Of a DNA stretch of 64,000 nt, positions 1 through 64,000 are shown in pieces; position 1 is the stretch's first letter; each line of letters opens with the position of its first letter. Under the pieces are notes generated by a model. That model saw nothing but the letters and a program-made list of their open reading frames with translations, ran no database searches and was not told the DNA's origin. The position numbers and the translations under genes are program-made. Source of the DNA: Blasia pusilla (lineage: Eukaryota). The stretch covers positions 14,260,001 to 14,324,000 of the forward strand of contig CM114271.1 of the NCBI GenBank assembly GCA_050084515.1, written 5' to 3'.

Positions 1-359
1 ACAGAGACAGTAGTACTTGGCAGGAGATGGACGACATGGGCCATCGGGGCATGCGTCATTTCTCGGGTGCAGTGGGCACCATCGACTTAGATGACAGCCC
101 GGAGACTAGATGGAGAGGAGGGCAGTGAGACAGGCGATGTGGCAGAGACCTTTGGTGGTAGAGGGCCACCCATCTCCTCTCACAATCCCATCATATGCCT
201 CGCGACCACTAGTGGACACATACCCTGGAGCCCAATACATCCTCCAAGCATCGATCTCTACTGAGTATAGTGATCGAAACTCCATGTAGTCATCCATCGG
301 AGGACCCTCCAAGTGCTGGAACAACCCCTTCCATGCCATGAAAGGATTTAGCCCCACAG

Positions 360-1210
360 TGGAGTTCTTCCGACAGTTGGGGAAGAGCTACTAGGGCGTA
401 CGCACCGACAAGCTGAAGAGTCTACAGGATTTTCAGCGACGATCGGGTGAGAGTCTGAGAGAGGCCTTCACACGCATGAGGAGGCTGATCATTGCTACAT
501 TTGGAGTGATCGAGGCGCATCGATACCCCGATTGGTCTGGGTTCGGACCGAGAACTACGAGGAGAGTCCGAGATGCGGTCTTTGATTCACACAAAGCCCA
601 CATTGAAGGTGGTCTTTGAGTTGTCAGAGCGTATTGAGCTCAACATGAGTGAGGAGCAGGTAGTGACCGCTGGATTTTCTCGAGAGTCGACGGGTCCACA
701 AGGGGCGGTGACCCCATAGGTGCCACAGCAAGCACCAGTACCACGGGAGCGGGCCAGTGTGCCTAGAGAGCACGGCGGGTACCGTGAGCCTATGAGGCAA
801 CGACCCGCACCTACATATGTTGCCCAACAGGGACCGATGTGGTCTTGTTGGACGTGTGGAGGGGCCCATAGGCAGAGAGACTGCCCACAGCATGGGAGAG
901 GACCACTAGCGCCTCCGATTGCGCAGGAGCCATAGAGGATGGCCCCACCACAGCACCAGTGTGACCATTGCCACAGATATGGTCACACTAGGGATATATG
1001 GTTTGACCTTTGCCGAGGGGCACGTCCAGAGGTAGGCCGAGGGCCTGGGGGCGGTCGTCCTGGAGGAGGTCGGGGAGTTCTTCCTGGACGTGGTGGTAGA
1101 GGACTACCACCAGCCAGAGGAGATGGAGCAGGAGCACCAGAGCCGGCACTTCTCTCACGTATCGATCACTTGGAGCAGAGGATTGTTGCCATGACGATGA
1201 TGCATCTTAG
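360..1210 (+). pseudogene. gag remnant with two zinc knuckles and an RGG-rich tract
   Basis: FFRQLGKSY*GVRTDKLKSLQDFQRRSGESLREAFTRMRRL (retrotransposon gag-like), CWTCGGAHRQRDC (846-884), CDHCHRYGHTRDIW (960-1001), GRGPGGGRPGGGRG. In-frame stops at ~392, ~717 and ~933. Confidence 0.8.
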
Positions 1211-1859
1211 GGAAGGCACGGAGCTGCGAGCAGCTAGTGTGACTCAGCTTCTACCTCTTACCCTGACCCGGGTGAGGATCTCGCCAGTATGGGATTTATG
1301 TGTAGTGCAGCCCAGGTTGAGGCAGATGCAGTGGTGACTCGGGGTGCTGCGAGAGGCACCAAGCCATCGAGAGGTGGAGTTGAGATTGACCCACAAGAGG
1401 GGACCGATGGGCGGCAGGCCAGGGTTCCACAGTCGTTCACACTATCGGAGGCACTACACACACCATCGATGGTGCCTCGATGACCAGCGGTGCCTACAGT
1501 TTAGGCACCTACGTCGACGTCACGAGGAGGTGGAGTGACAACTCCTATGCCGGCTCGAGTGGAGTCAGTGTCGACTATAGTGTTGGAGGTGGCCACTAGA
1601 GTGAGTGAGACTCTGCTATTTTCCGCCTTAGAGTTGGCGACGTTGGGAGTTGGACCAGCTGAGGTGTTCTGGTTGGCCGCCACGTTGTGTGAGCGTGGAG
1701 AGATGACTGCTTCTTGTTCAGAGGTAGTTGAGGAGGTGGTGGACTTGTCCTTAGAGCCGGTGCTTGGGACGTTCCCCACAAAGTCATGGCATGCGGCGGC
1801 GGCAAAGTTGGTAGATATGCCAGCTCGACCGGCCATAGAGCGAGCACTGGTGACACCTA

Positions 1860-2260
1860 GAGTAGTGTTACTGGATAACCGAGCTGGAGTATTTCGCTTG
1901 GTTAGTCCGACGGGGACAGTATACCACCCACAACGCGTCCTACTTGATTCGGGAGCGCAACCCTTGATGTTAGGGAAGGCGGCATGTTTAGCGTTGGGGT
2001 TACATAAGACCGACATTGAGCCTTGTCCCTTCCAGATACAGACCTTGATTGGGGGCGTATCACCCACTCGAAGATATGAATCGACGGAGATTCCGTCGAG
2101 TCCGCCGAGCATCGACGGATAGTGCTATTGTGCGCACACGTGCGATTACGACACCTGTTGAGTCGTACGATGTGTTGGTGGGGAGTACAGTGTTATATCC
2201 CCTAGGATTCATCCTTGACTTCTAGGAGGAGACCGTTGCTTATCGGCCAGGATGGCGGTC
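1860..2260 (+). pseudogene. Retroviral-type aspartic protease remnant
   Basis: RVLLDSGAQPLMLG with catalytic DSG at 1946-1954; C-terminal YDVLVG at ~2166-2183 in another frame. Confidence 0.85.
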
Positions 2261-2634
2261 AGGTGACGGTCGGATGAGTCAATTACCCGTGCAGTTTGCG
2301 GGATGAGGTGGTCGATCACGAGGCGAGTCTGTGACCACGTTGGCGGCTTTCACAGGTAGTGTTAGCTGGCCAGGAGAGTTGTTGGAGGGGAATGCACATG
2401 CGGAGGATGTCCCAGTAGCGGATAGTCCCACGGAGAGACAGGCCATGGCGGGTGTCTCTTCCCATGTTAGCGATGCCTCTTCACGATTATGGGGTACGAC
2501 TCGAGAGCTACAAAGGAGTGCCTACGACCTCGTGAGGCAGGCGTGGAGTCATGTTTTTATCCCAGAGCAGCGAGATTCACGTGGCGATCGGGCTCTTGGA
2601 GTGGAGACGATGACCCCACTAGATACCACACACT

Positions 2635-3780
2635 GTGTGGCGTGCCGAGGAGGGTGTTAGGGTGTTAGATCTCTTCAGAGGGATTAGCACCGGATTGGTG
2701 GCCATATTGCAAGCGGGCATACGGGTGCATCAGTACCTTTATGTGGAGAGAGATGAGACCGCGCGGCGAGTATCATTACGTCACGTGGCGAGATTGGCCC
2801 AGAGGTATCCTGAGTTGTCGTCGGTATCTGCAGTACGGGGATACCAGCATACACTACCCGCTGACATATCTTTGGTGGGGGCGCAGGATTTGGATAGAGT
2901 TGGCACCATTCATTTGGTGATTTCTGGATGGCCATGTCAGGGTCATTCATCAGCTGGCCGAGGATTAGGATTGCGGGATCCGAGGTCAGGGATGTTTTGG
3001 GAGATGCTGCGAGTAGTACGACACTTGCAGGAGAGTCAAATATGTTCTCCAGTGTACATTTTGGAGAACGTGCCGTTGTTGGGAGATACTCGTGCACGTG
3101 TGATGATGAGTGTACATCAGGTGAGGTCGTGGTTGGGACCTGCTGTGTTGTTAGATGCAGTGAGAGTTGGGTCACGTGCCCATCGTCCACGACTATGGTG
3201 GACAAACCTGATACCATCAGAGGTACTGAGTCGAGCCTATAGTGGAGTCCAGAGAGCATCACATCTCACAGTGGATGCTATTTTGGACTCAGGGCGTCGA
3301 TCTCAGGTAGTGACACGCGATGATAGACCACCGTTGGCCACGGCCAATAGGGTGGGGGAGTTGAGGGTAGCCTTACCTACGTTGGTGAGCTTCCCAGCAT
3401 CCCATGCCTTTCGTCAGGGAGGGCGAGGCATGATTTGGGATGAGGTGACGGGAGTATTGGAGGAGCCTACAGCAGATGAGCGCGAGCGCGCCATGGGGTT
3501 CACTACCAGTACTACGGCGGTGCCAGGGATGACTGAGGCATCACGGAGACAGGTGTTGGGGCAGGCGATGGACCTCAACTGTCTCAGATGGATAGTCAGC
3601 CTAGGTATGGCTGGGCAGAGATGGATGCGAGTGTCATCCATGCCGCCACGATCCACGAAGTTGGACCACCGCCTCGTGGTGCATGACAGGCATTGGCTGG
3701 GGGCGAGACGAGGAGAGATAGGCACCCATGGACTTCCTGGGACGTCGTTCGAGCAGAGAGTGCAAAGGCGGCTAGAGTAG
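2635..3780 (+). CDS. DNMT3-like C5 cytosine DNA methyltransferase domain of the retrotransposon polyprotein (domain ~2656-3600, uninterrupted)
   Basis: All catalytic motifs in canonical non-permuted order: I VLDLFRGISTG, II YLYVERD, III ADI, IV LVISGWPCQGHS (PCQ 2932-2940), V PRSGMFWE, VI YILENV (3064-3072), VIII DAVRVGSRAHRPRLWWTN, IX ERERAMGF, X RRQVLGQAMD. There is no own ATG; the frame is entered by a frameshift near 2630. Confidence 0.95.
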   Translation: MWRAEEGVRVLDLFRGISTGLVAILQAGIRVHQYLYVERDETARRVSLRHVARLAQRYPELSSVSAVRGYQHTLPADISLVGAQDLDRVGTIHLVISGWPCQGHSSAGRGLGLRDPRSGMFWEMLRVVRHLQESQICSPVYILENVPLLGDTRARVMMSVHQVRSWLGPAVLLDAVRVGSRAHRPRLWWTNLIPSEVLSRAYSGVQRASHLTVDAILDSGRRSQVVTRDDRPPLATANRVGELRVALPTLVSFPASHAFRQGGRGMIWDEVTGVLEEPTADERERAMGFTTSTTAVPGMTEASRRQVLGQAMDLNCLRWIVSLGMAGQRWMRVSSMPPRSTKLDHRLVVHDRHWLGARRGEIGTHGLPGTSFEQRVQRRLE

Positions 3781-3997
3781 CACATGTTCATTTTTCGGAT
3801 GTGGAGCATGGTGTAGGAGGTCAGAGTGGAGTGGTTGTGGCGGAGGTGGCTAGGGTTGCTACATAGCAACCAAAGCAGGAGGTTGCGTCCTCTCCGAGTG
3901 AGGTCACAATGGAGACTTGGGAGCCTGTGATAGGTCTCAAGTTGATAGGAGGAGAGCGACGGCGAGTTCATAGGTTTTCGAGAGGGAATGTCGGTTT

Positions 3998-4671
3998 TTG
4001 CCTTTGATGAGAGACTTGGGTACGCTGAAGGGTCCCGAGATACGGATTGAGTTGGCTAGTGATACGCCGATCTTTCGTCGACCCTACAGGTATTCTGATA
4101 TGGAACGAGCCTTGATTCAAAGTAGGAGTCAGGACTTGTTGGAGGCAGGACTTGTGGAGTTATCACATGGGGAGTATGCATCTGCCACAGTCATGCCGGC
4201 AAAGAAGGATATGTATGGCAATTGGACGGATAGGCAGATGTGTGGAGATTACCGTCCTATCAACTGACAGACGAGGTCAGATCGGTATGCCATGCCTACT
4301 CTTGAGGAGATCTTTGATGCGGTAGGGCATGCAAAGATCTTGATTTTAGATCTCCGTCTTTGGCTATCATCGCTTCCTATCAGGTTGGAGGACAGGAGAA
4401 GATTGCGTGCAGGGGATAGATCGGTTCGGGAGAGATTGTTGTATCGGTGGCGGTTCTTACCATTTGGGTTGAAGAACGCGCTGGGGTTTCGAGGAGAGTG
4501 ATGGATAGGATTCTGGCTGGCTTGGATTTTGTAGGATGTTACATAGATGATATTCTTATCTTCAGTTCCACGGTTGAGGAGCATGAGCGACACTTGGAAG
4601 AGGTGTTTCGGCAATTGCAATTACATGGACTGAAGTTACATCCAAGCAAGTGCAGATTCTTTCACGAGTAG
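3998..4671 (+). pseudogene. Reverse transcriptase remnant
   Basis: PIFRRPYRYS, YASATVMPAKKD, MCGDYRPIN, YRWRFLPFGLKNA, GCYIDDILIFS (YIDD 4540-4551), LKLHPSKCRF; split over three ORFs. Confidence 0.95.
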
Positions 4672-4672
4672 A

Positions 4673-5330
4673 TTGAGTACTTGGGACACACCATATACCC
4701 GAGTTCAGCAGACGAAGGTAGAGGCTATTGAGCAGATTCCACGCCCTACAGATGTGAGTCGAGTCCGAGCATTTCTTGGACTGGCGAACTTCTATCGACG
4801 GTATGTCAAGGGTTTAAGTGCGATCGCAAAGTCTTTGACCTTGTTGACGAGACTTGATCAGGTGTGGTTGTGGGGAGATGATCAGGAGCGAGCATTTCAG
4901 GAGCTCAAGGACAGGTTGACGTCCTCACCCATTTTACAGAGACCGGTTAGGGGTTGCCCATTCCAGTTACATACGGATTGGAGCATGTTGGGTCTAGGAG
5001 CAGTGATTACTCAGAGGGATGACGAGGAGAGGGAGTTTGTTGTGGCTTACGCGAGCCGATCGAACAACATTGCAGAGGCGAAGTACAGCTCCTACGAGGA
5101 GAGTGCTTGGCTGCAATGTGGGCCGTGGCACATTTAAGGTGCTATTTATTTGGCAACCCTTTCACACTTATCACTGATCATCAGCCGTTGAGGTGGTGCA
5201 TGGAGTCCGACAAGCTTACGGAAAAGCTTGCCAGGTGGGCTCTATTACTACAGGAGTATGAGTTTGAGGTGGTTCATAGGCCAGGTCGGCTGAACCAGGA
5301 TGCGGATGGGTTGAGTCATAACCCATGTCC
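4673..5330 (+). pseudogene. RT connection and RNase H remnant
   Basis: VRAFLGLANFYRRYVKG, FQLHTDWSMLGLGAV, VAYASR, EAKYSSYE, FTLITDHQPLRW, LARWALLLQEY, NQDADGLS. Confidence 0.93.
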
Positions 5331-5699
5331 GAGTCTGAGAGACGACACAGGAGCTCGATGGCACGGAGAGAGTGATGAGGAGATGGTGCCCGGTTGGCAT
5401 GCATCTGCCTATCTTTGTTGGTTGACTATGGCAGGTCAACCACAGGTGATGACTCCAGTGGTGGGATTGGATGATGAGTCTTTGGATCCGGAGGTTAGTG
5501 AGGAGGCGACAGGTGGTCGTGATATCCATGACGACGTGGAGGTTGTGGAGTTCTTGCGCACTGGCGTCATTGCGAGTATAGTGAGTGCTAGGGAGTGGGA
5601 TCGGATCCTACAGAGAGCCAAGAGGTTCAGGTGGGAGGGGACTCACATTTTGCGGGTATGGGGAGATGGTAGGATACGAGTGGTACCTCATCCTTCCCA

Positions 5700-6695
5700 G
5701 CGAGCACGTGTAGTGCGACATGCCCATGAGGAGTTGGGACATTTCGGAGTAAAGCGTACTTACAGCTTACTCTAGGTTCAGTATTGGTGGTGCAGCATGC
5801 ATACTGGGGGTTCAGCAGTTTGTGGCCAAATGTATGGTATGTGACAGAGTGCGAGCATCCTTCAATGCTCCCAGTCCGTAGTTACATCCTTTGTCGATTA
5901 TGGGTTTAGGTTATCGGTGGAGTTTAGACTTTGCGGGACCTTTGCCATTGACTGGGCGTCATCATAGGTACGTGTTGGTCATGGTGGAGCATTTCTCCAA
6001 GTGGATAGAGTTGGTGGCACTACCAGACAAGGCGAGCGAGGGAACAGCTTATGCGTTTCTAGATCGTGTGCTTAGTCACTTTGATGCACCGGCGGAGGTG
6101 TTGATTGACCAAGGTACCGAGTTCAGGGGAGAGTTTCAGGCCTTGTGTGATCAGGGGCTGATAGATCACCGCACCACGTCCAGGGATCATCCTGAGGCGG
6201 ATGGATTGGCGGAGAGAGTGGTACAGACGGTGAATAGAGGATTGCGCAAGTATGGCTTGCAGCGGGGACAGTTGTGGGAGTGGGACCTATAGTTGCCATG
6301 GTTGGCTATGGGTTATCGCTTTAGTCGGCAAGCATCCTTGGCGTCATTTTCACCGTACTTTTTGCTCTTTGGGAGAGAGCCAGATTTACCTACAGCGATT
6401 CGACGTGACATGGCGGAGGTGTTAGATCTTGATGATCCAGATATGTGGGTGCAAGCATGTTCTCAGAGGGCAGAATTTTTTCGTAGAGTTATGCCTATGG
6501 CCTTTGAGAACTTAGCTATTGCCCAGCACAGAGATATATTGAGGTACGCGACCATTCGTGGAGGAGGTTATCGTCCAAGGATTAGGAGGTTTCATCCTGG
6601 AGATTACGTGTATTTACAGCAGGCGGCACCCACGACGCTAGATGTCACTGCAGGGCGCACGATCCTACGTGTGCGCGAGGCATTACTGACCGGAG
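5700..6695 (+). pseudogene. Integrase remnant (HHCC plus DDE core), C-terminus truncated
   Basis: HAHEELGHFG, CMVC at ~5831, WSLDFAGP, VLIDQGTEF, HPEADGLAERVVQT, SPYFLLFGR, FHPGDYVYL; TAG stops at 5773, 5879 and 6289. Confidence 0.93.
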
Positions 6696-28960: not shown

Positions 28961-29273
28961 TGTAGAAAACTGTTAAAGAAGCATAACTGGTGGAAAATGA
29001 CTTTCACACTCACACACCACCATGGAGAACAAAAATTTGCAACGAGAGAATGAGTGGAGACCGGTCCCCTTCTCAATTATATAGGGTATGTACTGACAAC
29101 CCTAACCCTAATCTTAACCATAGTCTTGAGTTGGACTAACTATGATTAACTAACCATAGTTAATATAATCGTGCTTAATTGACTAACCAAGATTAAGCTT
29201 CCCTACTTCGTATGAGTACCAAATATAGCAGTTTAAGTGTCTCATGAGTTTAACTGTAACTCAATCTTCAATA
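28961..29273 (-). repeat. Copia 3' LTR, with adjacent polypurine tract (GAGGGGGAG on - strand, 29274-29282)
   Basis: Direct repeat of 33488-33798, 60550-60861 and 62822-63150. Confidence 0.95.
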
Positions 29274-30800: not shown

Positions 30801-31085
30801 TTACAACTTCTTTAAAACAACTTGGCTCGTGTTCTTGAAGAATAGTCATCATATATGCATGATGTGTCGCAAGAAATTTATGAATCTATGAAGAGGATTT
30901 ATGACTCTATTTGATCTATCAAGTTGTTGTTAAGAGGTAGATTCCTCTAACACTTGACTCGAGCTCTCACTAGTGTCAAGAAACTGAATACGTACTCTTT
31001 CCTTCCATGGACTCATAGATTTAACTGACAAATCTAGGACCTCTCATAATCTTGCTGTAGTATTTGGGAAATTTGAAGACAATGT

Positions 31086-31900
31086 CTATTGGTTTACAGT
31101 CATATTCTCCCCCTTAACAAACGAGTTTAGAGGTGGAATTTGCTCAGATGGAACATACCATAACTTTAGCTCATCAAAGACAACATCGCAACTAATAATA
31201 AGTTGCATAGAGGATGGAATGTAGCACTTATACCCCTTAATTCCATCAATGTAGCCAATTAATATACATCTTCCAGATTTGGGATCTAATTTCTGACGTC
31301 TTTTAGAAGGAACATCAACATAACAAATACAACCAAATACTTTTATGAAGGAAAAATCAAGTTTATTTCCTGTCAAGATTTCAAATGGAGTATTCTCATG
31401 AACTCATGATGTTGGAGTTCGGTTGATTAGGAAGATTGCACACACTACATCCTCTGCCCAGTACACCTTAGGCATGTTCTTCTCATTCAACATAGCTCGT
31501 GCTGCCTCAGTAATATGTCGATTCTTCCTCTGAACCACTCCATTTTGCTATGGGATGTAATGACAAGTCACTTGACGTTGGATGTCATTTTGACGTAAGT
31601 AGTGATCAAACTCTATTGAAAGATATTCTCCTTCTCCATCACAACGCAATTTCAGAGTGTGTTCTCCAATCTGCTTCTCTAGTAGCACTCTGAATGTTTG
31701 GAATATTGAGAATACCTTTGATTTGGCTTTCAGAAAGTATACCCATATACATCTAGAGAAATCATCAATAAATGAAATAAAATACTCGCAACCACTACGA
31801 TTATGTTGTGATGTTGTCCACACATCATTGTGAATCAACTCCAATATATTGGATGCTCTTCTACCTTGCTTTGGAAAAGAAAATCTAGCTTGTTTTCCAA
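31086..31900 (-). pseudogene. Copia integrase remnant
   Basis: ELIHNDVW, YFISFIDDFSR, LRCDGEGEY, KVFGCICYV, KLDPKSGRCILIGY. Confidence 0.93.
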
Positions 31901-32479
31901 ATTGGCAAGTAAGACATATCTCTAACGTAAAAGGACTCGCTAATTTAAGAAGTCCTATTACTATATTAGATGATGAAGACTCTGTAATCTTTGAAGATTC
32001 ATGTGTCTAATTCTCTTATGCCACACTTTTAGATCTATGACTTATTGGCTAGTTTGACCATACATCCTTGTTTGAATCTGTAGTATAGAAACCTCTAATT
32101 TGAACATTCTGCAAGATCTAGTTCTATTGGCTATCATACTCTGATCATCTATTGTTTCAATGAAACAACCATTTCTGTTAATTTTCACTTGATAATCCTC
32201 TTCTACTATCTGTCATACAGAGATCAAGTTTCTTGCAATGGTAGAAATACAGAGAACATTTCCAAGAGCACAAAGACCATTTGATGCTATTGGAACTTTA
32301 CGAGTATTGTGATATGATGTTGAGTGTCATCTCTTATGAGCAGAATTGCTAGTAGGTAGCAATTCCATCTTATCTAGGATGCATTGGAATCGCTACCTAC
32401 TAGACGCATCTCTTCACTGATTAATATTGGGACTAACTCTTGAAAGGTTAGATACTTCTCTTTCACAGAGATAGATAAA

Positions 32480-32990
32480 GGTCTCAAAGGACTTGTAATC
32501 CTTTGGAAGGCCTTGAAGAGTAAACAAAATCAGATCATCATCTTCTACTGTCACTCCAATGCTATTCAATTGATCAACAATATATCTTACACTTAAAATA
32601 TAATCATTAATGTTCTACGATCCTTTCCACACTTTGTTCAATTTTTGTTTCAATTGAAGCTTTCTGGCCTTTGTAGATGTCAAGAACAACTTTTCCAATG
32701 CATCCTAGATACTCCTTTGAAGTATCAACATCTTGAATGTGACCTATCATCGGCGAACTGATAGCTATTGAAATGTAATGGATTACCTGCCTTGCGCGTT
32801 TGTTCGAAGGATGAACATTCAAGTCTGTTGAGTCACCTTCTGGCTTGGCCTCTTCACCTGTGACAAGCTCGCATAATTCTTGATCCATGAGAAATTTTTT
32901 CATGTGAAACTTCCAAATTGTGTAATTCTGCTTGTCTAGCTTCTCGCCTGTGATTGTTGTTGAGGAATACTCCATGATGAACGATTTCAC
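32480..32990 (-). pseudogene. Copia gag remnant
   Basis: EKLDKQNYTIWKFHMKKFLMDQELCELVTG, a typical Copia gag N-terminus just downstream of the PBS and leader. Confidence 0.85.
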
Positions 32991-33475
32991 TCACAAAAAC
33001 GTAATTTCAGGCTGTTCATTGCTCCAATTGAAGCAAAGACCACTCCTAAAAATAAATCGACCTGAGATTTGCCAAAATTGATCAATGGTGTGAAAGAACT
33101 AGTCGAAATTGGCTTGTAGAGAGCGAATTGCACAACTTTTCTTCACTAATTGCACTTTCCTATATTGAAATTGCTATTGCAGGAGCTCAGAATGTCATAA
33201 TCGAGCAATTTGGGATACGTTGGAAAGCTCCCGATGAGCTCTACAAGTTAGAATAAGCCTTTGGCATCATTCTAACTAATGCGGACCCAAATGACTAATT
33301 CGATCGAGAAAGCCCTAAAAAAGGCCTCTAAAGTTTTATCAACGTCAAAGCTCCACCTGAAATCTGCACCCACTAAGCTTTGAATAAAATTTCCTTCTCC
33401 CAAACTAGAATTGTGCCTTCTCTTGCCTCTCTTCTCTCCTCAAATATCAAGAACTTCAAGTGATGTTCTCCTATC

Positions 33476-33487
33476 GCTCTAATACCA
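33476..33487 (-). promoter_or_regulatory. Primer-binding site (tRNA-iMet type)
   Basis: TGGTATTAGAGC on the - strand directly after the 5' LTR; one mismatch to the plant consensus TGGTATCAGAGC. Confidence 0.85.
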
Positions 33488-33798
33488 TGTAGAAAAATGC
33501 TAAAGAAGCATAATTGGTGGAAGACAGCCCACACTCACACACCACCATGGAGAACAAAATTTTGCAATGAAAGAATGAGTGGAGGCTGGTCCCCTTCTCA
33601 ATTGTATAGGGTATGTACAAGTAATCCTCACCTTAATCTTAATCATAGTCTCGAGTTAGACTAATTATGATTAACTAATCATAGTCAAGATAATCACGCT
33701 TAATTGACTTACCAAGATTAAGCTTCCCTACTTCGTGTGAGAACCAAATGTAGCAGTTTAGGTGTCTTATGAGCTTGAATGTAACTCAATTTTCAATA
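33488..33798 (-). repeat. Copia 5' LTR
   Basis: Direct repeat of 28961-29273, roughly 40 mostly transition differences by eye. Confidence 0.95.
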
Positions 33799-48738: not shown

Positions 48739-51737
48739 TCAAGTTATGCGAGCAACCCACCATTCTGGTGCTGCTGGACATAGAGGTTCCAAAGAGTCGA
48801 ATACATCTGCAGCAAAACCTGAGATTACGCTATCTGGGCTACAAGAGTCGGAATCCTTGCCCTCAGGCTCTTGCATGGTCTGATCACTTGAGTAAAGCAT
48901 CGGAAGTTTCTCCCACTGCTGGCTGTTGCTCAGGAAGGTGGGTAGCTCGGGACTGAAAATCTGACTGCTCTGCATAGACGATGCCTCTGTCTGAAGTAGA
49001 AAGTCAAGGTAGTTGTTGTTTTGTTGCTCTGCAGATAGAGGAACTCCGAATTCCCTGGAGTTGTTCAGGATAAGAGGTAGGCCTACGTCTGGCAACATTT
49101 GGACGGAATCGGGACTCCCATCATTCCCAGGATGATGCTCGAAGCAAGCTCTTGCATCCCGCCTTGACCTGGGTCTGCGCTTCACAGATCGAGCATTCCT
49201 AGGGGTGACCATCAAAGAAGAATGCTGGTACATGACAGAGCTATGCCTTACGTCATCAGGGAGACACCTCCCAGATTGGGTGAAGTCCGAGTCAGTGAAA
49301 TGGGAGTCACCAGCAACCATATCCTGAAGCTTCAGGCTCAAAACATCTTCAACTTCCAAAGAATTGAAAGGCTGGACTGAATGGCGAAGGCGCATATGCC
49401 CTGGTGGTTCCCTGAACGCATTGTCATCTTCAAACATGAAGGCAGTCACAAAGCCGGAGGAGACTAATCCTGTCCCCGATGGACTGTGTACCTGCAACCA
49501 CAAAGAATGCGCCGCATTCAAAATATTTCTTCGAAGACTCCTCAAAAGTAGCGGCAAAGCTACTAGCACGACCCGAGTACATTCGCAGTGTGACAACTAC
49601 ATAAGTATCAATGGATTCCTGGAGCTAGTTGATCTCATCTTGTCTAGGAAAAGCAAAAAAAATCTTTTCGAGATATTTTATTACCCACTTTAGGAAGATA
49701 TTTTATTATTACCCACTTCGGATATAACCCTCTGGTATGGTATAGTCATATCCGAAGTTATATCGATACTCCCGAAATCGCTGCTTCTCGGTTCAGGAGC
49801 TGGGTCTATGGTTGCAAAGCTACGACAGGCTCTTCCTAATGAGTATTCTCTCTCTCCATGGACAGGCACAACAAAATAAGAACAGTCTCTCATAGCTCCG
49901 TTCCACCACGGGGTCAATCCTTGCATGGTTACGAAAGGATGGGATTTTCATCACAGCATTACACTTGCCATCTTAAATTTCAAATAATATTTAAAAATTA
50001 GGTGTATGGATTTAAAATTTACGTCCAATCTCTTTCCCACACATCTGGTGCTTCCTTACTTTTTCCTTCCATATGCATCTGAGTCCCACGAGGTCTACGG
50101 TCGTAAGCCTACGACAGGAAGAGCATAGCAAATTTGATCCTATCGCAGTGGTCGAGGTCTTTTCGATAAAATTCGATGGACGGGTGGCTTAGAAGGTTCA
50201 TACCATTTACAAGCAATTTATGTGGGAGAGATAACCAACCTGGAGCCGAATGATGAAAGTGTAGTATGACGCAAATAAAAATAGGAAATTGAAAGTGGAA
50301 GAATACTGCGACATGCGGAGAGCATACACGCGGGTGGGGCCAGAACGCACCTGGAAAGCTCCAAAATCGGTAATCGAAGGATCTTTACTGAGGTCCGACG
50401 TATCAGCAGCAGCATCGGTACTGCCAGAGGGCATTTTCGGGCGCTGCAGGGCACGCAAAATGCGTTTCTGTCGAGTGCTCCAAAAATTTTTCACGTCATT
50501 ATCAGTACGTCCGGGAAGACACGAAGCTATTTTGGCCCACTTGTTTCCAAGCTTAGCTTGCATCTCCACCACCAGTTTTTCTTCTTCTGGAGAGAATTTA
50601 CACCCACTCCTGCAAATTTGATCGCACATCGTCCTATTCAGAAGATTTTGTCTGAACAACTGAGTATCTTCCGGAATACTAGCAAGATGCTCAATCCATT
50701 GGCATGCGTCACTTTGAAAGGTGAGGTTTTACTTCCAAAAGTCCAACAGTGATAGTAAAATCATCAAAACGATTGTCCAAATTGTTCTGAGCGTTCTCAC
50801 AGTCAGCTACATGAAACCCATCGCCAGAGAAACAGATATACTCTCCATTTGCTAGTTCTGTACCATCTAAGCGTTCACCGATGATGTATTAGGCCTCTAA
50901 GAACAAGGCCTCGCTTACATTTCAGCACTAAGTCGTGTACTTTAGCTAAAATTATGTTACATTTGTACGAGTAACAGCAAGAAAGATTTCCGTTCAACCA
51001 CGTTGGTGTGCAGGCAAGAGAAAATTAAGATGCACTGCCTCAAGGAATCATCGCTTTCCTTGTATTTGCGCGAAAAACGGAGAGACACTTAAATAAAGGC
51101 GGATACAGGAATTGTTCCGATGTATCAGGACTATACATCAAATACTGGATCAGGATGATATAAGGAAACTTCTCAACTACTTTGGTCGTATTTACTGACA
51201 GATACTTGCGACTAGGAGTGGATGCCTAAGAAATATTTGTGAAGGAAACGAAGAAGTGAATAAAGGCTCCGAATTGATTTTGATGAAGGGTACATGTTCA
51301 ACTCTCATCTTCAGACTTTGACGACTTCAGAATTTTCTCATGGCTGCTTTTCTATCATACACTGGCGAAAATAAATGCCTCTGTATGCCCCATGCATGAT
51401 GGTATAACGATTACTTAGGATGAAAACATGATTTTGAACGGAGCCTCTAGCTTAATTCTTGAGCTGGTGGATAAAAGTTGTCTAGACTGTAAAGCAAACG
51501 AAATTGGGATACTAAAAAAAGATGAGATGAGATATGGTACCTTTTTAGATCAGGTTTGAGCTTATTGACCCAGCGTAAACGACAAGACTTTCCAGTTCGA
51601 GGCAATAAACCTTTGGACCGAATAGAACTCCAGTCGCGTGCACCAAATTGGCGCACATATTCTACTAGAATTTCGTCCTCTTCTGGCATCCACGGGCCCT
51701 TCCGTAAGACTTCATCCCCATTCTGAATTGTCTTCAT
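48739..51737 (-). CDS. DUO1: R2R3-MYB transcription factor DUO POLLEN 1 orthologue (sperm differentiation regulator), 3 coding exons
   Basis: Exons 51737-51541, 50609-50351, 49491-48739. DUO1-diagnostic RDWSSIRSKGLLPRTGKSCRLRWVNKL, GCKFS linker, NFWSTRQKR, and acidic C-terminal SPDSVISGFAADVFDSLEP. Confidence 0.9.
51612..51632 (-). promoter_or_regulatory. Putative miR159/miR319 target site within DUO1 exon 1
   Basis: mRNA-sense TGGAGTTCTATTCGGTCCAAA (encoding WSSIRSK), the position of the known miR159 site in angiosperm DUO1; one mismatch plus several G:U pairs. Confidence 0.55.
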
Positions 51738-55000: not shown

Positions 55001-56706
55001 ACAGTAGAAGAGTTGGGTCGACTCTCCTTTGAGTCCCTAAAACTATGATCAAGGCCTCTACTTGTGCATGTGTTGCACAGATCTCTCTTCTTAGGCAGAG
55101 GTCCAAATTGACTCTGACGTCCTCAACCCCTCCTCCATTGAACTCCACAATATGCAATTGCTGTGGAACTCCAATCGACAATCCATCCTCCTTTCGCTTC
55201 TCTATCCAACCCCAAAAACTCTTCAACCTTTGGCAAGACATCCGCACAGATATTTGGTGTGTCGTCAAGAGACCATATGCCCCCCTCCTCTTGTGAATGT
55301 GGAATATGACGTTGCCATAGATATTTAGTGCTAGTTCTTGAAACATAAATAACTTGGAAATTAGAATTACCAAGGTTCCTAAAATTAATTCGCTAACCTA
55401 CCAAGGTCGTGAGTATATGCCAATTTGTGAAGACCTATTGCCTTGTCTTTCTACCATGGTAAACATCGTCCATCATCTCTTGCTCCGGGTAAATGCCATA
55501 ATGAATGTATTTTCACAAATCACACCATGTTAGACTTCTTCCCAATTATAAAGAAATAGAAAAAAAACCAAGAAATTAAAGGGGATATTTACTTACAAAG
55601 ATATCTCAGAATGCCTCAACTCCACCATCTCTAAAGTAGCGTGTTCCCTTTGATGTTATCAAAGATTTTTGCAACTCCACTGTTCACTAGTGATCCACTC
55701 TCCCTCATATAGGATGGACAATAGGTGCCAACTCCCATCCCAAGATTTTCCTCTAACTCGTAATGTCACATTTCCAGGGCACCAACATCACCAACACCCA
55801 TGCCTCTTGCTTGCAACCACACTCATGCGCTTTTGCCACTAGCAACCGTGCAACAATCATCACTTGATGACAACTCTTGGATGTGAAACAACTAATTATT
55901 ATCTACATCATGTCACCCAAGATGCTCCATATATTCTAGAAATCCCCTTAAAGAGACTATCGATAAGTGATCAAGGATATAGTCTACCCACATATTAATC
56001 ATTGGCAGATATACACTTCAAAATCTGGTGGAGAAACTTTTTGGCCTTGGGTGTGGTTGGAGCTCTAGAGAAACTCAAAATCAATGTCCAAAAATATATA
56101 TGGCTATAGACCCCAATCCAAATAAGTACAACTCAAAGTGATCTGTAACTTCTATCAATTGTTCCCTCACCAACACCGCAAGAGACTACATGATAAAATC
56201 ATATGGGAAACACACCACTTTCTCATAATACTCAACAACAATCGAGCCAAATCCACCCTCACCATGAGGGAGTCCAAGTCTCATGTGTGTCGACAACATA
56301 CCCTAGCCTATGCTTGGATGGCTCAACCATGGAAAGATAAGCCTTTCCAAGCCTTCCCTTGGGATATTCTCCTCCGAAGACCCTCTAAGGCTCCAAGAAG
56401 GTGACGTATGCACACAAATAACCTCCACCTACACAATAGGTTCCTAACAAATTGAAAACTTTCAAGAAGGTTCCAAGAAAGCTAACAATCTAGGCGATGA
56501 GATCATTAAGGGAGGTCAACATGTCACTCTTAGCCTCTCCACACTTAACTACATACATAGCTTCCCTATTAGGGCCTATTAATTACATACTTTTTTCAAC
56601 TAAAAATGGCATGCTACATCTATGATAATCTCCTAATCCTTAGCCGATAATCTCCTCCAAGACTAATTACATAACTCATTGTATCCATATGTTGAGCAAT
56701 AGCCAA

Positions 56707-56754
56707 ATTCTTAAATGCTATAGGCATAAATCCGCGCCTATAGCATTTAAGAAT
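56707..56754. repeat. Perfect inverted repeat, 19-bp stem with 10-nt loop
   Basis: attcttaaatgctataggc-ataaatccgc-gcctatagcatttaagaat. Confidence 0.95.
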
Positions 56755-57027
56755 CTATGACCTCAGAGAACATGCTCACATCTGGATATTTGGGTTATCA
56801 AAGTTCATCATCTCTTCCATATCACATTTGAGATAACATCAAATAGTTGCAGGTAAGTTATAGTCTCTTCCAAAGAGCAAAATATACAAAAGATCTATGA
56901 CCTTAGAGAACATGCTCGCATCTGGATATTTGGGTTATCAAAGTTCATCATCTCTTCCATATCACATTTGAGATAACATCAAATAGTTGCAGGTAAGTTA
57001 TAGTCTCTTCCATAGAGCAAAATATAC
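56753..57027. repeat. Tandem duplication, 2 x 140 bp, nearly identical
   Basis: Unit atctatgacc...aatatac starts at 56753 and 56893. Confidence 0.95.
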
Positions 57028-57179
57028 GATGAAGATAATACCAATGATGCATGTCAACATAAGAGATATCGCGTATCCAACCATAGTAACTATAGGTCCC
57101 ACTCCTTCAAATATCCTCATTTTGAACCATACTTGTAAACATATTACTCTCTCCCCAAACCATTTGATATCATGTTTGT

Positions 57180-58250
57180 ATCATCTATGATTATGGTGGA
57201 CAAACGTGCTACCATCAAAGGTATTGAGGCTACCTTATGATGGTGTTCAAAGAGCATTGCTCTTGATAGTGTATGTTATCTTAGGTGGTGACCTATGATG
57301 ATAGACAACCATTGGCTATAGCCAAAATAGTGGAGGAGTTGAAGGCAACACTTCCTATATTGGTGAGCTTAAGGATTTCCGACATCCCATGTCTTTCATC
57401 ACACAGGATCAAGCATGATATGGGATGAACAGACTTAAGGATTGGAGGGACCGTTAACTAAGGAGTGAGAGTAAGCAATAGACATGAATAATAATAATAA
57501 AAATGGGTTTTTCTATAGGTATAGCAATGATGCAAGAGGCATTATAGAGACATGTGTTGGGTCAAGCAATTGACATGAACCGACTTGCTGAGTAGCAACC
57601 ATAGTCTTAGACTTTGTCTTTATGTAAGATCATGATGGAGACTTGGGAGCAATGCCATTTAGGTTTTGGATTGAAAATCAAAGAGAAGAGAGACAATAGA
57701 TAGATTGATTCTTAAGAGGACATGAGTTTTTTTTTCCTTTAGCATGAGATATTTAGGTACTTTTATTTGATGGGTCTTGATATTATATGGATAGAAGCTA
57801 TTATGCACACTCCATGCCCTGCAAATATAAGTCGATTTTGATCTTGTTCAATATACTTGATCAACCAAAAAGATACGCATTGGAGTATGTTGGGCTTGGG
57901 AGCTGTGCTTACTAAGAGAGATGATGAGGGAAGAGTTAATTATGGCTAATGCAAGCCAATCAAACAACATTATAGAGGTTGAGTAGATCTTGTACAAGGG
58001 AGAGTGCTCGGCTCAATTGGCTGCAGTATGGATCACATCACATTTTAGGTGTTTTTGTTGAAATTTGTTCTGGTAGTCCTTTCATGCTCACCATTGATCG
58101 CAAACCATTGAGGCGTTTATGTGAATCTACGAGGGATGAAGCCATCATGTTGGTTTGTGATAGTTTTTTTAAGAGGGTGGCATATGTTATGCTTGCCCTC
58201 CAAACTCTTTACGTAGCTCTCACGAGATGATGTATAAACGTTAGAAGTGT
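57180..58250 (+). mobile_element. Internally deleted fossil of the DNMT-carrying Gypsy family (DNMT motifs VIII-X, RT start, RNase H, PHD finger remnant)
   Basis: LWWTNVLPSKVL (57191) vs LWWTNLIPSEVL; DDRQPLAIA vs DDRPPLATA; HVLGQAIDMN (57551) vs QVLGQAMDLN; DTHWSMLGLGAVLTKRDDEGR (57872) vs HTDWSMLGLGAVITQRDDEER; PFMLTIDRKPLR vs PFTLITDHQPLR; then MLVCDS..RGWHMLCL. Confidence 0.88.
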
Positions 58251-59944
58251 ATACACAAGTGGATTACATTTGGTTAGATGTGTTGATTGCTTTGTGGAGT
58301 TGGGAGACCTAATTGATTCTTAGGGAGCAATTTTATAGTGTTGGTATATGTGTGTGAAACTATTTTGGTGTGTGTGTGGATCTACTCATTTGTTGGCAAG
58401 ATGGATGGACCCAACATGCCAACTCCATTCCATCGTACGCCATGATGAATCAAGACTCTAACACAAAAGCTCTTACCGGCCTACCAAACCCTAAAAGGAA
58501 GATTTCTCCATGGATTCCCTCTACTCATCTCTTATACCCTTGGGAAGAGCCAAAAGAGGCCTCTCCATAATTTTAACCCACATCAATAACCTACACTCAT
58601 AGGTTATTGGGTAACTGTTGACTTGGTGAACATGTTATCTGATTTAAAATATAAAACCAAGGAATTGTTCATAAATACTATTCCTAATGTAACAAAGTTG
58701 TAACCAATCTCATATGACCACTCATAATAAAGTTATGTCTAAATAGTTGGCTTACTCCCTACATTGTCGACATGGTAGAAACTACATGTCCAATCTCCTT
58801 GATCTCCCTACATATGGTCTTAACATTTATCTAGGTTATATTTACAATTTTCATGCCTTTTATAAAGAGGAGGCTATAGGGGCTTTGGAGGATACCTAAG
58901 GTTTGGTTTTATAAGCGATGCCTCATTGCTTGACTTAATTCGGGATTGAGAAAAGTTGCAAGGAAAAAAAATCCTTGATCTTTGACCTTCATCAATTTCT
59001 ATTGGAGATATCATGCATCGCCATCACCTTCATTATTATTGATGGTGATGCTCAATAAGCCTCTAGGCTGATGTTGCTATGTCTATGCACAAGGTACCAG
59101 TTTTAAAGGTGGTTGCGTATTTGCGTGAGTGAGTCACATGTGATTGTATACAATCATTTTGGTCCAAATTTAGCTCATTGACGTAGTTACTAGGTTAGTA
59201 TATTAGTAAATGGAATGTGATGCAACGTTATGGGGCAACCACAAAGACTTAATATTGGTGGAGGTATATGATAGGTGGTATATAGTGTGCAAAGGATTTA
59301 TATAATGTGGTATATAGTGCGCGAGACCTTATACAATGTGAGATCATTCCTAGCTATATCCAATTTCTTCGTTTTGCGCTAACATGGTAATGCCTAGAGG
59401 AATTATATATGCAAGGTTGCGAGTGGACTTATCCACCTCCGTAGACTTATGTCCATCCTAGGGACGAACTTGTCCATGCGGGAATTTTTTCCTGCATTTC
59501 CTGTTCCATACTCGATCTCAACCACTTTTTGTACCCCCATCAACTCGTCCCGACAACATGTATGTGTGCCCATGCCCATACTCTTTCCCGGCTTTTTATC
59601 CATGCACTCCACCACTGCCATCACTTGTCCCCATGTCTTGCCACAAGGGGGATGTTGGTTATTTTTTTCTTTTGTTGCTTCGCATCTTGTGCCCCCCACA
59701 CTTGTCACATCCCTGGCGCCCCACATCCCATACCCCGCAGCCATCCATATGCTCTTATGTCCCACAACCCATGCCTCACACCTATTTTGTGCACAATCAT
59801 AGCCCACGCTTTTGTAGGTGACCCAAGTTCTCTGAAAACTTGGGGGCAAGATGGCTTGTTTTTAGACTTGTCCATTTCTGTGCAACCCTGGAAGTATGTT
59901 AAGGATCAACACAAACAATTTCATTCATGTTGGGATGAGGTTTT

Positions 59945-60861
59945 GTCTTGATCCATGAGAAATTTTTTCATGCAAAACTTTGAGATATTGTATTTCTGCT
60001 TATTTAGCTTCTCGCTTGTGATTACTGTTTAGGAATACTCCATGACGAACGATTTCACTCACAAAAACTTTATTTCAGGCTCTCTACTACTCCAATTGAA
60101 GCATAGACCACTCCTACCCACAAATCAACCTGAAATTTGCCAAAATTGATCAAATGTATGAAAGAACTAGTCGAAATTGGCATGTAGAGCAAAGTGCACA
60201 ACTTTTCTTAACTACTTGCACTTTCCTACACTGAAATTCCTACTACAGGAGCTCAGAATGTTATAATTGAGCGATTTTGGGTGCGTTGGAAAGCTCTCAA
60301 CAAGCTCTATAAGATGACTAGAAGAAAGTTGTTCTAGCTGCTACGGACCTAGATGGTTAAATTGACCAGGAAAGCCCTAAAAAATACCTCCAAAGTTTTA
60401 TCACGGTCAAAGCTCCACATGAAATCTGCACCCACTGAGCTCTGAACAAAATTTCCTTCTCCCAAACTGAAGTTGTGCCTTCTCTTGCCTCTCTTATCTC
60501 CTCAAACACCAAGAATTTCAAGTGATGTTCTCCTATAGCTCAGATACCATGTGGAAACCTGCTAAAGAAGTATAATTGGTGGGAAACGACTCTCACACTC
60601 ACACACCACCATGGAGAAAGAAATTTGCAATGAGAGAATGAGTGCAGGATGGTCCCCTTTCAAATTATATAGGGTATGTACAAGAAACCCTAATCCTAAC
60701 CTTAGTCATTGTCTTGAGTTAGACTAATTGTGATTAACTAACCATAGTTAAGATAGTCGCGCTTAACTGACTAACCAAGATTAAGCTTCCCTACTTCGTG
60801 TGAGTACCAAATATAGCAGTTTAGGTGTCTCATGAGCTTGATTGTAACTCAATCTTCAATA
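59945..60861 (-). mobile_element. Truncated second Copia copy: 5' LTR (60550-60861), PBS, leader and start of gag
   Basis: Continuous DNA similarity to 32878-33798; PBS TGGTATCTGAGC at 60538-60549. Confidence 0.93.
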
Positions 60862-61990: not shown

Positions 61991-62821
61991 GTTATTTTGA
62001 TACTTCTTGCCTCTGTGTTTGGATGCCATGAGTTAGCATGGGATCGTGCGTGTTTGTTTATGTGTTCGGTGACAGAGATGTATGTTGTGTAGCGATATGT
62101 ATGCGCACGACACATATCGTGTGTCTCCTTCAAGAGACCTCTCCAACACGCAACCATCATAGCGTGAGACTACCAAAGTTCGGTTGTTCCATTTGGCGCT
62201 CGTTTGGGTAAGTGGGACGCAACACACATGATGGGTTGGGCCCCCGCGGCTAGGCCGTGTGCAGGCCTAGCCGTCTAGCGGTGGACCCAAGGTTGCACGG
62301 AAATGCAAAGTCCGGACGTGCCCGGCCCGCACCCGAGCCTGATGCCTAGATCCGAGATCCCACATCAATTGTGTGGCGCGTAAGGGGTACGGGTTCCGTT
62401 AGCCCTGGTCTACATGGCAGACTCTATGGAGGCTTGGGTACGGGCCACGAGTACTCGAGTACGGACACGGACTTTGTTCGTGTGCAACCGCGCGTGGGTT
62501 GTGGAGCTAGCCTTGGGCCCGACATCAATTGGGCACAGTCTTCAGCCCGCCCAACAGGAGCCAAATGCGCCCTACCTGCCAGGCAAGGGCTCATAGCCTG
62601 CACAAGATCCTTTCAACCACTACCCTTCTAAGCCTGCACCCATTCCCATATCCCAAGCCCACATGGGCAGTCGAGGTGCCAAAAAAATCCAAGCGGGCAA
62701 GGTTGCAGGGAAACGAATAAGTCTGCATGTGTGGGCTCGTTAGCATGAGCAAGCCTAGGGCCCGCCATACGCAGGGCTGAGCCCACCCAATGGGGGCCCA
62801 GCCTGCCACGTGGGGGCCTAG

Positions 62822-64000
62822 TGTAGAAAATTGCTAAAGAAGCATAATTGATTGGATACAACTCTCACACTCACACACCACCATGGAGAACAAAATTTTA
62901 CAATGAGAGAATGAGCGAAGGCTCGTCCCCTTCTCAATCATATAGGGTATGTATAAGCAATCCTAATCCTAATCCTTATCTTGATCCTAATCCTAATCCT
63001 AATCATAGTCTTGAGTTAGACTAACAGTGATTAACTAATCCTAGTTAAGATAATCATGCTTAACTGACTAACCAAGATTAAACTTCTTGTGAGTACCAAA
63101 TACAATAGTGCGGGTGTCCAATGAGCTTGACTTTAACTTATTCTTCAATACTCCCCCTCATGCTCATATCGATATTTCTAATACCTAAATTTTTTCTAGA
63201 CAACTCAAACTTATATGTAAACAATGCCTTGGTAAATATATCAACAATTTGCTGATATGTACCTATATGCACAAGATCAATTTCTCGTGGAAGCACTTTC
63301 TCTTTGATAAAATGATAGTGCACCTCCACATGTTTTGTTCGAGCATGAAACATAGGATTATTAGCAAGCTTGATGTTACTAATATTTTTTGCATATATTA
63401 CACTAGATCATAAGTTACTAACACCAATATCAACAAGTAATCAATGAAGCCACACCGCCTCACATGCTGCATTGGTTGCTCCTCTGTACTCAACCTCTAT
63501 TGAAGATATAGCAGTTGTAGATTGCTTCTATGAAGCCCAACTTATAATTGCGCTTCCCAAGGTAAATGAATAACCAGATGTGGAGTGTCTATCAGACACG
63601 CTTTTTGCCCAATCAGCATCTATGAATCACTATAATTGTAAACTCGAAGAAGGTTCAAATTGAAGCCCAAATTGAATAGAGAATTTCACATACCGCATAA
63701 TATTCTTCACATCATCAAGGTGAGGTTTTCGAGGTGCTTGTATAAATTGGCTCACTAGGCCAACTACAAAGCTCAAGTCTGGCCTGGTTATAGTCAGATA
63801 AATCAAATTTCCAACCATGAGCCAGTATGTATTAAAATCTGCAAGCAACTCTTCTTCATCCACTCTTAGCTTCACACTTTCGTCCAATGGTGTAGAGATT
63901 AGCTTACAAGCCGCCCTACCATATTTTGAAAGCATGTGAAGAGCATATTATCATTGTAACAACCACATGCTCTCTCTAGCTCTGATAAACTCAACACCAA
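62822..64000 (-). mobile_element. 3' end of a third Copia copy: 3' LTR (62822-63150), PPT, RNase H and RT remnants; continues beyond window
   Basis: Similar to 28961-30130; FHARTKHVEVHYHFIKE, LIYLTITRPDLSFVVGLVSQF. Confidence 0.95.

What the first reader, a model, noticed from the sequence alone, without database searches (positions are those of the whole stretch)
58117..58250. Degenerate PHD finger at the 3' end of the fossil: possible chromatin reader plus DNA-methylation writer in one retroelement
Seen: directly after the RNase H remnant the DNA reads LCESTRDEAIMLVCDS, then after a +1 slip in a T run RGWHMLCLPSKL, later *C (TGA plausibly from TGG). Known: this matches the PHD core (MLxCDxCxxGWHxxCL...WxC), and PHD fingers bind histone H3 tails. 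Inference: intact elements are Gag-PR-DNMT-RT-RH-INT-PHD. The PHD could steer integration as chromodomains do in chromoviruses, or stand in for the ADD domain of animal DNMT3. The 1-6695 copy is cut just before such a domain would begin.
Basis: partly seen in the sequence, partly recalled or inferred. Interest (0 to 1): 0.75.

Follow-up and report, generated by a model that had tools for sequence, protein, structure and literature searches.

The report
Retrotransposon integrase ending in PHD finger
The stretch is a broken histone-reader (PHD) zinc finger from a dead copy of a very abundant plant retrotransposon that also carries its own DNA methyltransferase; in better-kept copies the finger is the tail of the integrase and is separated from the methyltransferase by a leaky stop codon, so it more likely helps place new copies than steers methylation.

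Summary
Real. 58108-58254 is a decayed PHD finger (4 of 8 zinc ligands left), joined to RNase H by a ~1.6-kb deletion. It does not score as PHD alone, but is 74-84% identical to 40 scored genome copies. In 19 of 19 fetched copies the PHD follows integrase; 14 are colinear DNMT-RT-RH-INT-PHD. First-look candidates: 9551 PHD, 7841 DNMT. The ADD idea is weakened: a TMV-type leaky stop (TAG-CARYYA, 22 of 24 located copies) puts DNMT3 in Gag-PR-DNMT and the PHD in RT-RH-INT-PHD. The finger is under purifying selection, lacks the methyl-K4 tryptophan, but in this subclade also lacks the acidic wall, so histone binding is unproven. Ends are split repeats (A...B-A-B) with 4-bp TSDs and a self-priming site, fitting integration from a circle. 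Kin occur in liverworts, mosses, Klebsormidium and chlorophytes. Closest known: KnitGypsy-Dnmt3. This scan noted the PHD and the permuted ends before, in other genomes. New variant of a known kind.

The parts
58108..58254 (+). Decayed PHD finger (two frame slips, 4 of 8 zinc ligands left) of a DNMT3-carrying Gypsy element
   Evidence: relatives score PF00628
58108..58113 (+). Microhomology shared by RNase H and the PHD start; deletion junction (about 1.6 kb of RNase H end and integrase absent)
   Evidence: natural copy L053 5842 to 7457
57880..58118 (+). RNase H remnant of the fossil
   Evidence: 70% identity
57180..57585 (+). DNMT3-like remnant (C-terminal half) of the fossil
   Evidence: 62% identity
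57585..57760 (+). Remnant of the RT N-terminal region
   Evidence: 65% identity
56622..57135 (-). Integrase C-terminal region, inverted, with a 135-bp tandem duplication (56753-56887 / 56893-57027)
58255..58407 (+). Spacer, decayed G-rich polypurine tract and first half of terminal repeat B
58496..58758 (-). Inverted remnant of terminal repeat A
   Evidence: 62% identity, E 2e-12
1..6690 (+). Younger, 3'-truncated copy of the same family: Gag-PR-DNMT, RT-RH-INT; its repeat A lies about 2.5 kb before the window (L013 7529-7991)
2623..3780 (+). DNMT3-like C5 methyltransferase frame of that copy
   Evidence: PF00145 E 1.4e-9; best 26 solved matches are DNMT3A/B/C
3864..3872 (+). In-frame TAG followed by CAACCA (UAG-CARYYA readthrough consensus) between DNMT and RT
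   Evidence: consensus in PMC2754532

Best explanation
Shown: the stretch is the ruined PHD finger of an old, scrambled copy of a high-copy Ty3/Gypsy family. In whole copies ORF1 is Gag-PR-DNMT3, then one in-frame TAG-CAACCA, then RT-RH-INT-PHD, the PHD being the last domain of the integrase. Inferred: ribosomes mostly stop after the DNMT, so DNMT is made at Gag level and INT-PHD only by readthrough; after proteolysis the PHD travels with integrase, as chromodomains do in chromoviruses, and docks the integration complex on nucleosomes, most likely through the H3 N-terminus when K4 is not methylated, which would steer copies away from active promoters. The DNMT works separately, probably on the element's own cDNA in the particle. 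Reader and writer share an element but not a mature protein.
For: INT precedes PHD in 19 of 19 copies, 14 colinear with DNMT, 1 rearranged, 4 truncated or deleted; modal spacing between all 18 anchors from PR to PHD is a multiple of 3; TAG-CARYYA in 22 of 24 located copies, 27 examined, and with other letters (CAGTTA, CAATCA) as the only stop in two divergent open elements (L085, L086). PHD follows rve in 23 of 23 long representatives scanned, complete C4HC3 in 130 of 150, PHD in 75 of 80 metagenome loci. PHD pN 0.19-0.46 versus pS 0.59-0.78 in 11 of 11 pairs; dN/dS 0.13-0.33 in the 8 unsaturated ones. Trp two residues before the His in 0 of 130, D/E after Cys3 in 126 of 130; that Trp marks methyl-K4 readers (PMC5415848, passages; column assignment is from my knowledge). 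Top solved matches include CHD4, DPF2, KDM5A/B PHD1, PHF21A, listed as unmethylated-K4 binders in PMC6979384 (passages). Complex prediction with host H3 residues 1-36: weak support, score 0.34, best control 0.02, runs agree in at least 82% of contacts, partner pLDDT at least 52; the mark was reached by 51 of 78 solved and 2 of 108 mismatched pairs, but at 0.60 or under by only 5 of 78 solved and all 4 mismatches that passed; like complexes are solved, so it may be from memory.
Against: No binding or targeting data. The land-plant subclade lacks the acidic wall (0 of 12 complete genome copies, 0 of 15 nearest relatives, versus 88 of 130 wider relatives) and acids before Cys1 (0 of 12), and its finger is net basic (+2.6 versus -4.0); loss of that patch weakens H3 binding in BAZ2A/B. 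Only 31 of 123 human PHD constructs bound H3 in a screen. The 29 top PHD hits on C1 run from 1.8 to 65.5 Mb of 68.7 Mb: no visible clustering. Readthrough is not universal: 5 of 24 metagenome loci with DNMT before RT show no stop in the RT frame, and 48 of 244 proteins carry DNMT between RH and INT in one frame. No protease site between DNMT, RT and INT was mapped.
Confidence: 0.55

Rival explanations
1. The PHD is part of the integrase machine but reads something other than an H3 tail: DNA, the internal att junction, a host protein, or integrase itself, tuning its activity.
For: Net basic finger without acidic wall in this subclade; fixed 219-nt spacing from the GPY-like motif (17 of 21) and a linker as conserved as the core (84-93% identity in four pairs); a reference title in PMC11054761 says the Tf1 chromodomain modulates integrase activity (title only).
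Against: Canonical PHD fold with the Asp after Cys3 and the C-terminal Trp kept; weak pass with H3; wider relatives keep the acids.
Confidence: 0.27
2. The PHD stands in for the ADD domain: in the readthrough polyprotein or in the particle it guides the element's DNMT3 to unmethylated-K4 nucleosomes at the insertion site.
For: Both domains co-occur across the clade (82 of 244 proteins hold both a DNMT and the INT-PHD region in one frame); in the chlorophyte branch the DNMT lies next to INT; the finger is of the unmethylated-K4 type, the mark that ADD reads (recalled).
Against: Leaky stop puts most DNMT in a product without PHD; about 1,200 residues of RT-RH-INT lie between them; DNMT changes position while PHD does not; top solved matches are not ADD domains.
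Confidence: 0.13
3. The PHD is a functionless passenger, or the fragment is an unrelated nested piece.
For: The fossil alone has no Pfam hit; no scored copy has an open frame over the finger longer than 460 aa (150 scored).
Against: In frame with integrase, purifying selection, kept across hundreds of 50%-identity clusters, and the fossil continues into the family's own repeat B.
Confidence: 0.03

Closest known systems
KnitGypsy-Dnmt3 of Klebsormidium nitens (de Mendoza et al. 2018, PMC5890265; abstract, passages and a search of 3 supplement files seen, figures not held)
   Same: Gypsy domain set with an intronless DNMT3-like domain in the polyprotein; DIRS-like arrangement of terminal repeats (Fig. 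4c legend); a K. nitens INT-PHD protein (KFL_015960010) falls in the same branch (52% identity).
   Different: The text and supplements searched do not mention a PHD (Fig. 4c itself could show one), readthrough, self-priming or a mechanism for the ends; described from a charophyte with few copies, whereas here there are thousands of candidates and kin in liverworts, mosses and chlorophytes. That the K. nitens protein belongs to KnitGypsy-Dnmt3 was not shown.
Chromoviruses (e.g. MAGGY; Tcn1 and Tf1/Sushi groups) (passages of PMC6317226, PMC6673714, bioRxiv 2021.11.30.470311)
   Same: Chromatin-reader domain at the integrase C-terminus; self-priming as predicted for Tcn1/Tf1.
   Different: PHD instead of chromodomain; DNMT3 cargo; split terminal repeats; clade position relative to REXdb lineages not tested.
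PHD-bearing retroelements of Chlamydomonas (Gypsy-7a_cRei, REM1) and CR1 LINEs (passages of PMC9940879, PMC8557442; REM1 and Kapitonov and Jurka 2003 seen only as citations)
   Same: PHD as an accessory domain of a retroelement; Gypsy-7a inserts intergenically 2.6 times more than chance.
   Different: No DNMT reported in the passages seen; PHD position relative to integrase not stated there.
EpiLTRs (bioRxiv 10.64898/2026.05.21.726589, passages)
   Same: Histone reader plus cytosine methyltransferase in one LTR element.
   Different: Chromodomain, DNMT4-related DNMT and a DAM domain; stated to be distinct from streptophyte Gypsy-DNMT3.

Membership tests
PHD finger (PF00628) | Cys4-His-Cys3 ligands and Pfam cut-off, in the fossil itself | tested here: not met
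   4 of 8 ligands, two slips; no hit for either frame piece
PHD finger (PF00628) | Cys4-His-Cys3 ligands and Pfam cut-off, in natural relatives | tested here: met
   5 of 6 ORFs above cut-off; complete pattern in 12 of 24 genome copies
H3K4me3-reading PHD | Cage tryptophan two residues before the His ligand | tested here: not met
   0 of 130, 0 of 15, 0 of 12
Acidic-wall H3K4me0 readers (BAZ2A/B, KDM5 PHD1, DPF, UHRF1) | [quoted passage not shown] | tested here: not met
   0 of 12 genome copies and 0 of 15 nearest relatives; met in 88 of 130 wider relatives (column placed by the DPF2 alignment)
H3-tail-binding PHD | Measured binding to H3 peptide | not testable with these tools
   prediction only, weak support
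Gypsy-DNMT3 (KnitGypsy-Dnmt3 type) | Gypsy order RT-RH-INT with DDE integrase | tested here: met
Gypsy-DNMT3 (KnitGypsy-Dnmt3 type) | Intronless DNMT3-like domain inside the coding region | tested here: met
   PF00145; DNMT3A/B/C rank above bacterial enzymes, E 4e-6; no DNMT tree was built
Gypsy-DNMT3 (KnitGypsy-Dnmt3 type) | DIRS-like (split) terminal repeats | tested here: met
   B-A-B after the PHD in 20 of 29 copies; A at the 5' end in 12 of 22 copies with upstream DNA
Gypsy-DNMT3 (KnitGypsy-Dnmt3 type) | Common descent with KnitGypsy-Dnmt3 itself | tested here: inconclusive
Chromovirus | Chromodomain at the integrase C-terminus | tested here: not met
   stop codon follows the PHD by two codons in genome copies; no Chromo hit in 23 long relatives
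Canonical LTR retrotransposon | Two full direct LTRs | tested here: not met
   5' end has A only; 3' end B-A-B
Canonical LTR retrotransposon | TG...CA ends with target-site duplication | tested here: met
   4-bp TSD exact in 8 of 10, one mismatch in 2 of 10, no 5-bp match
DIRS / tyrosine-recombinase elements | Tyrosine recombinase, no TSD | tested here: not met
   rve integrase and TSDs
ADD domain of DNMT3 | Reader in the same mature protein as the catalytic domain | tested here: inconclusive
   separated by a leaky stop and RT-RH-INT; processing not testable

The most novel reading that the evidence does not exclude
A green-lineage-wide Gypsy clade with its own life cycle: a self-primed RNA is copied into a cDNA with B+A repeats at both ends, which closes into a 2-LTR circle; a DDE integrase tethered by its PHD to K4-unmethylated nucleosomes opens the circle at an internal CA-NN-TG site and inserts it with a 4-bp duplication; a leaky stop loads each particle with Gag-level DNMT3 that methylates the new copy. 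This would be a natural case of the circle-junction integration that was abandoned for retroviruses, coupled to a reader and a writer, and it has filled a land-plant genome with thousands of copies.
Probability: 0.25. Interest if true: 0.85.

Novelty: new variant of a known kind. Interest (0 to 1): 0.52.

Why it matters
Retrotransposon PHD fingers have been guessed since 2003 to steer insertion, without a test in the passages I read. Here a PHD is fixed to the integrase of a DNMT3-carrying clade that is present in Marchantia polymorpha and Sphagnum, so insertion sites can be laid on existing chromatin maps and the finger assayed. The leaky stop gives a clear prediction on how reader and writer are dosed, and the permuted ends make circle-junction integration by a retroviral-type integrase testable. 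Annotated 'DNA methyltransferase' gene models in these bryophytes include pieces of this element.

Tried and rejected
Pfam on the two fossil frame pieces: no hit. 'TGA from the Trp codon': rejected by alignment. PHD natively after RNase H: rejected, deletion junction. Unrelated nested element: rejected. tRNA-type primer site: none seen by eye; a 14-nt complement to the region 31 nt after the TATA box was found instead, against at most 8 nt in 44 control windows. The other circle permutation (A-B-A...B) was looked for among 29 copies and not seen; 8 copies end at B1, 4 of them with 5' A visible and no B before it: unexplained asymmetry. Run search listed no holder on record as RNA. Laying reads: 2252 of 10.1 million and 2443 of 12.0 million records from two RNA runs of organism A lie on a copy, mostly sense, but most are under 95% alike, 67-70% run on unlike, the flank beyond the element is covered as deeply, and organism A is not shown to be this genome's species: not used as support. 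A1/A2 transition rates (CG 0.059, CHG 0.101, CHH 0.030; 6 pairs) only suggest host methylation. Paper searches without a description of PHD plus DNMT3 in one Gypsy element; split repeats in Gypsy; circle junction. The library lacks most subscription papers; Fig. 4c of PMC5890265 and Supplementary Table 6 of bioRxiv 2021.11.30.470311 were not visible and may list this fusion. Placement among REXdb lineages and host species were not determined.

Full report
Observation. The pieces alone have no Pfam hit. The DNA, however, matches 40 scored places in the window's genome (G000, 390 Mb, 26 contigs) at 74-84% identity (40 of 172 candidates scored), and six natural frames from those places gave PF00628, five above the cut-off. 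Against one natural copy the fossil aligns from 58108 to 58407 (E 1.4e-32). It keeps ligands 2, 3, His5 and 6, has lost 1, 4, 7 and 8, and has two slips.

The fossil. 56622-58758 is a scrambled, older copy (62-70% identity to a natural copy): inverted integrase tail, DNMT half, RT start, RNase H, PHD, part of repeat B, inverted repeat A. RNase H and PHD are joined at a shared TTGAGG with about 1.6 kb missing, so the PHD does not natively follow RNase H. The copy at 1-6690 ends about 135 nt before the first Cys (spacing).

The family. Short probes gave 9551 first-look candidates for the PHD and 7841 for the DNMT; 150 of each were scored, at 86-100% identity. Candidates are not copy numbers. No scored copy has an open frame longer than 460 aa over the PHD or 539 aa over the DNMT, so all scored copies are broken. 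Of 19 loci fetched around PHD hits, all have integrase directly upstream; 14 are colinear DNMT-RT-RH-INT-PHD, one is rearranged, four lack the DNMT through truncation or deletion. Over 25 copies the modal distance between each pair of 18 anchors from protease to PHD is a multiple of three, and the PHD is followed by a stop after two codons. The DNMT's best 26 solved matches are DNMT3A/B/C, ahead of bacterial enzymes.

A leaky stop separates writer from reader. One in-frame stop lies between DNMT and RT. It reads TAG-CAACCA in 22 of 24 copies where it was located (27 examined; window 3864). CAR-YYA after UAG is the tobacco mosaic virus readthrough consensus (PMC2754532 and PMC2194720, passages). 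Among 24 metagenome loci with DNMT before RT, two open elements have a single TAG followed by CAGTTA or CAATCA, both fitting the consensus with other letters; four have TAG or TAA then CAACCC; five have no stop; 13 are decayed or show other stops. Marchantia and Calypogeia gene models end after the DNMT in the same way. Inference: DNMT is made at Gag level, INT-PHD at readthrough level, at least in this subclade.

The finger. It is conserved beyond this genome: 403 representatives at E 1e-30 or better; PHD after rve in 23 of 23 long ones scanned; complete C4HC3 in 130 of 150; PHD in 75 of 80 metagenome loci. Named relatives are from Marchantia, Calypogeia, Riccia, Sphagnum, Klebsormidium, Closterium, Haematococcus, Scenedesmus, Pleodorina and Tetrabaena (some by DNMT only, some by INT-PHD only). 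In 11 pairs the PHD has pN 0.19-0.46 and pS 0.59-0.78; dN/dS is 0.13-0.33 in the eight unsaturated pairs. Among 244 proteins the DNMT lies between RH and INT in 48, before RT in 4, before INT with RH unseen in 30; 44 have no DNMT between RH and INT and 118 show only INT. A midpoint-rooted INT-PHD tree of 130 rows (INT-only fragments without a species name left out) puts this genome with Marchantia, Calypogeia and Klebsormidium, apart from the chlorophyte branch with DNMT next to INT. The PHD stays on the integrase in both.

What it may bind. The methyl-K4 cage tryptophan is absent in all 130 complete fingers; the Asp/Glu after Cys3 is kept in 126 (meaning of the Trp from PMC5415848, passages). 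Nearest solved fingers include CHD4, PHF12, DPF2, KDM5A/B PHD1, PHF21A and ATXR5, several listed as unmethylated-K4 readers (PMC6979384, passages). Against this, the land-plant subclade has no acidic wall (0 of 12 complete genome copies, 0 of 15 nearest relatives; 88 of 130 wider relatives have it) and is net basic. A complex prediction with host H3 1-36 gave weak support: 0.34 against a best control of 0.02, at least 82% contact agreement, partner pLDDT at least 52; such low passes are more often wrong than right unless likely beforehand, and like complexes are solved. Top hits are spread along C1 (29 hits from 1.8 to 65.5 Mb), so there is no sign of centromere-type targeting.

The ends. Repeat B (138 bp) follows the PHD in 29 of 29 copies; B-A-B in 20, B only in 8, B-A in one. 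A (about 480 bp) opens the element in 12 of 22 copies with upstream DNA. Ends are TGTCA...ACA with a 4-bp duplication, exact in 8 of 10 and with one mismatch in 2. A G-rich tract precedes B1; A holds a TATA box; the 14 nt after A1 are complementary to a stretch 31 nt after the TATA box (control windows at most 8 nt, 44 windows). A distant relative (L118, 50% identity) has the same layout with a different 15-nt pair, 32 nt after its TATA box; in L098 the best complement (11 nt) was not near the TATA box, and L079 gave none. Self-priming is predicted for Tcn1 and known for Tf1/Sushi (PMC6317226, passages). The B|A junction is ACA-NN-TGTCA in 14 genome copies and similar in 13 metagenome loci; the A|B junction has no extra base in 11, one A in 2, one G in 1. 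Inference: reverse transcription defines B+A as the LTR, the cDNA closes into a circle, and integrase opens it at the internal junction. Retroviruses were shown to use linear DNA instead (PMC11054761, passages). The mirror permutation was not seen, which the model does not explain.

Comparison. KnitGypsy-Dnmt3 has a Gypsy domain set, a DNMT3 and DIRS-like repeats (PMC5890265, abstract and passages); 'PHD' occurs neither in its text nor in three supplement files, but its figure was not visible. PHDs in retroelements are known and called widespread, and reader-plus-writer EpiLTRs are described in a 2026 preprint. Searches found no paper describing PHD plus DNMT3 in one Gypsy element or such elements in land plants. 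Earlier notes of this scan report the same PHD in other genomes and the permuted ends once; I read them after reaching these results and count them as leads only.

Verdict. Real, correctly read in architecture, and a variant of a known kind. Integration tethering 0.55, non-histone integrase role 0.27, ADD-like role 0.13, passenger 0.03. Interest 0.52; the readthrough and the ends add more than the PHD alone.

Noticed in passing
window 3864-3872; L085 5083, L086 4661: TMV-type TAG-CARYYA readthrough signal between DNMT and RT, with different letters in divergent elements; absent in a more distant subgroup.
   Followed up: yes
L045 7680-8436 and L046 1589-2085; L118; L098: Split repeats A...B-A-B, internal ACA-NN-TGTCA junction, self-priming site and 4-bp TSD: possible integration from a 2-LTR circle.
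   Followed up: yes
L135 210; L147 8425, L148 8426: Single in-frame TGA followed by CGG (the tobacco rattle virus type context) or by CTA between DNMT and RT in distant relatives; may be other readthrough signals or chance.
   Followed up: no
P0017, P0019, P0089 and most representatives: In 123 of 130 wider relatives the frame runs more than 15 residues (often 100-400) past the PHD; no Pfam hit for this tail in those scanned.
   Followed up: no
P0065, P0251, P0255: Some relatives carry a G-patch domain between DNMT and integrase.
   Followed up: no
P0176-P0199, P0206: Many Marchantia, Calypogeia and Sphagnum gene models, some named DNA (cytosine-5)-methyltransferase, are pieces of this element.
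   Followed up: partly
loose ends at L045 7781 and 7825: RNA reads of organism A show an abundant related subfamily that shares only the B|A junction and has different A and B sequences.
   Followed up: no
window 8067-8709: A third, more diverged Gag remnant of the family.
   Followed up: no
window 29809-32006 (-): Copia remnant: RVT_2 (E 3e-59) and rve frames.
   Followed up: no
window 50210-50728 (-): Open frame with a Myb DNA-binding domain (E 3.5e-15); host exon or transposon piece not determined.
   Followed up: no
window 28957-30134 / 62818-64000 and 32878-33798 / 59946-60861: Dispersed direct repeats of 0.9-1.2 kb at 80-84% identity, overlapping the Copia remnant's end; probably its LTR family.
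   Followed up: no
L013 1-8319: An inverted, more diverged DNMT-RT-RH-INT-PHD copy and two A repeats lie just upstream of the window.
   Followed up: partly
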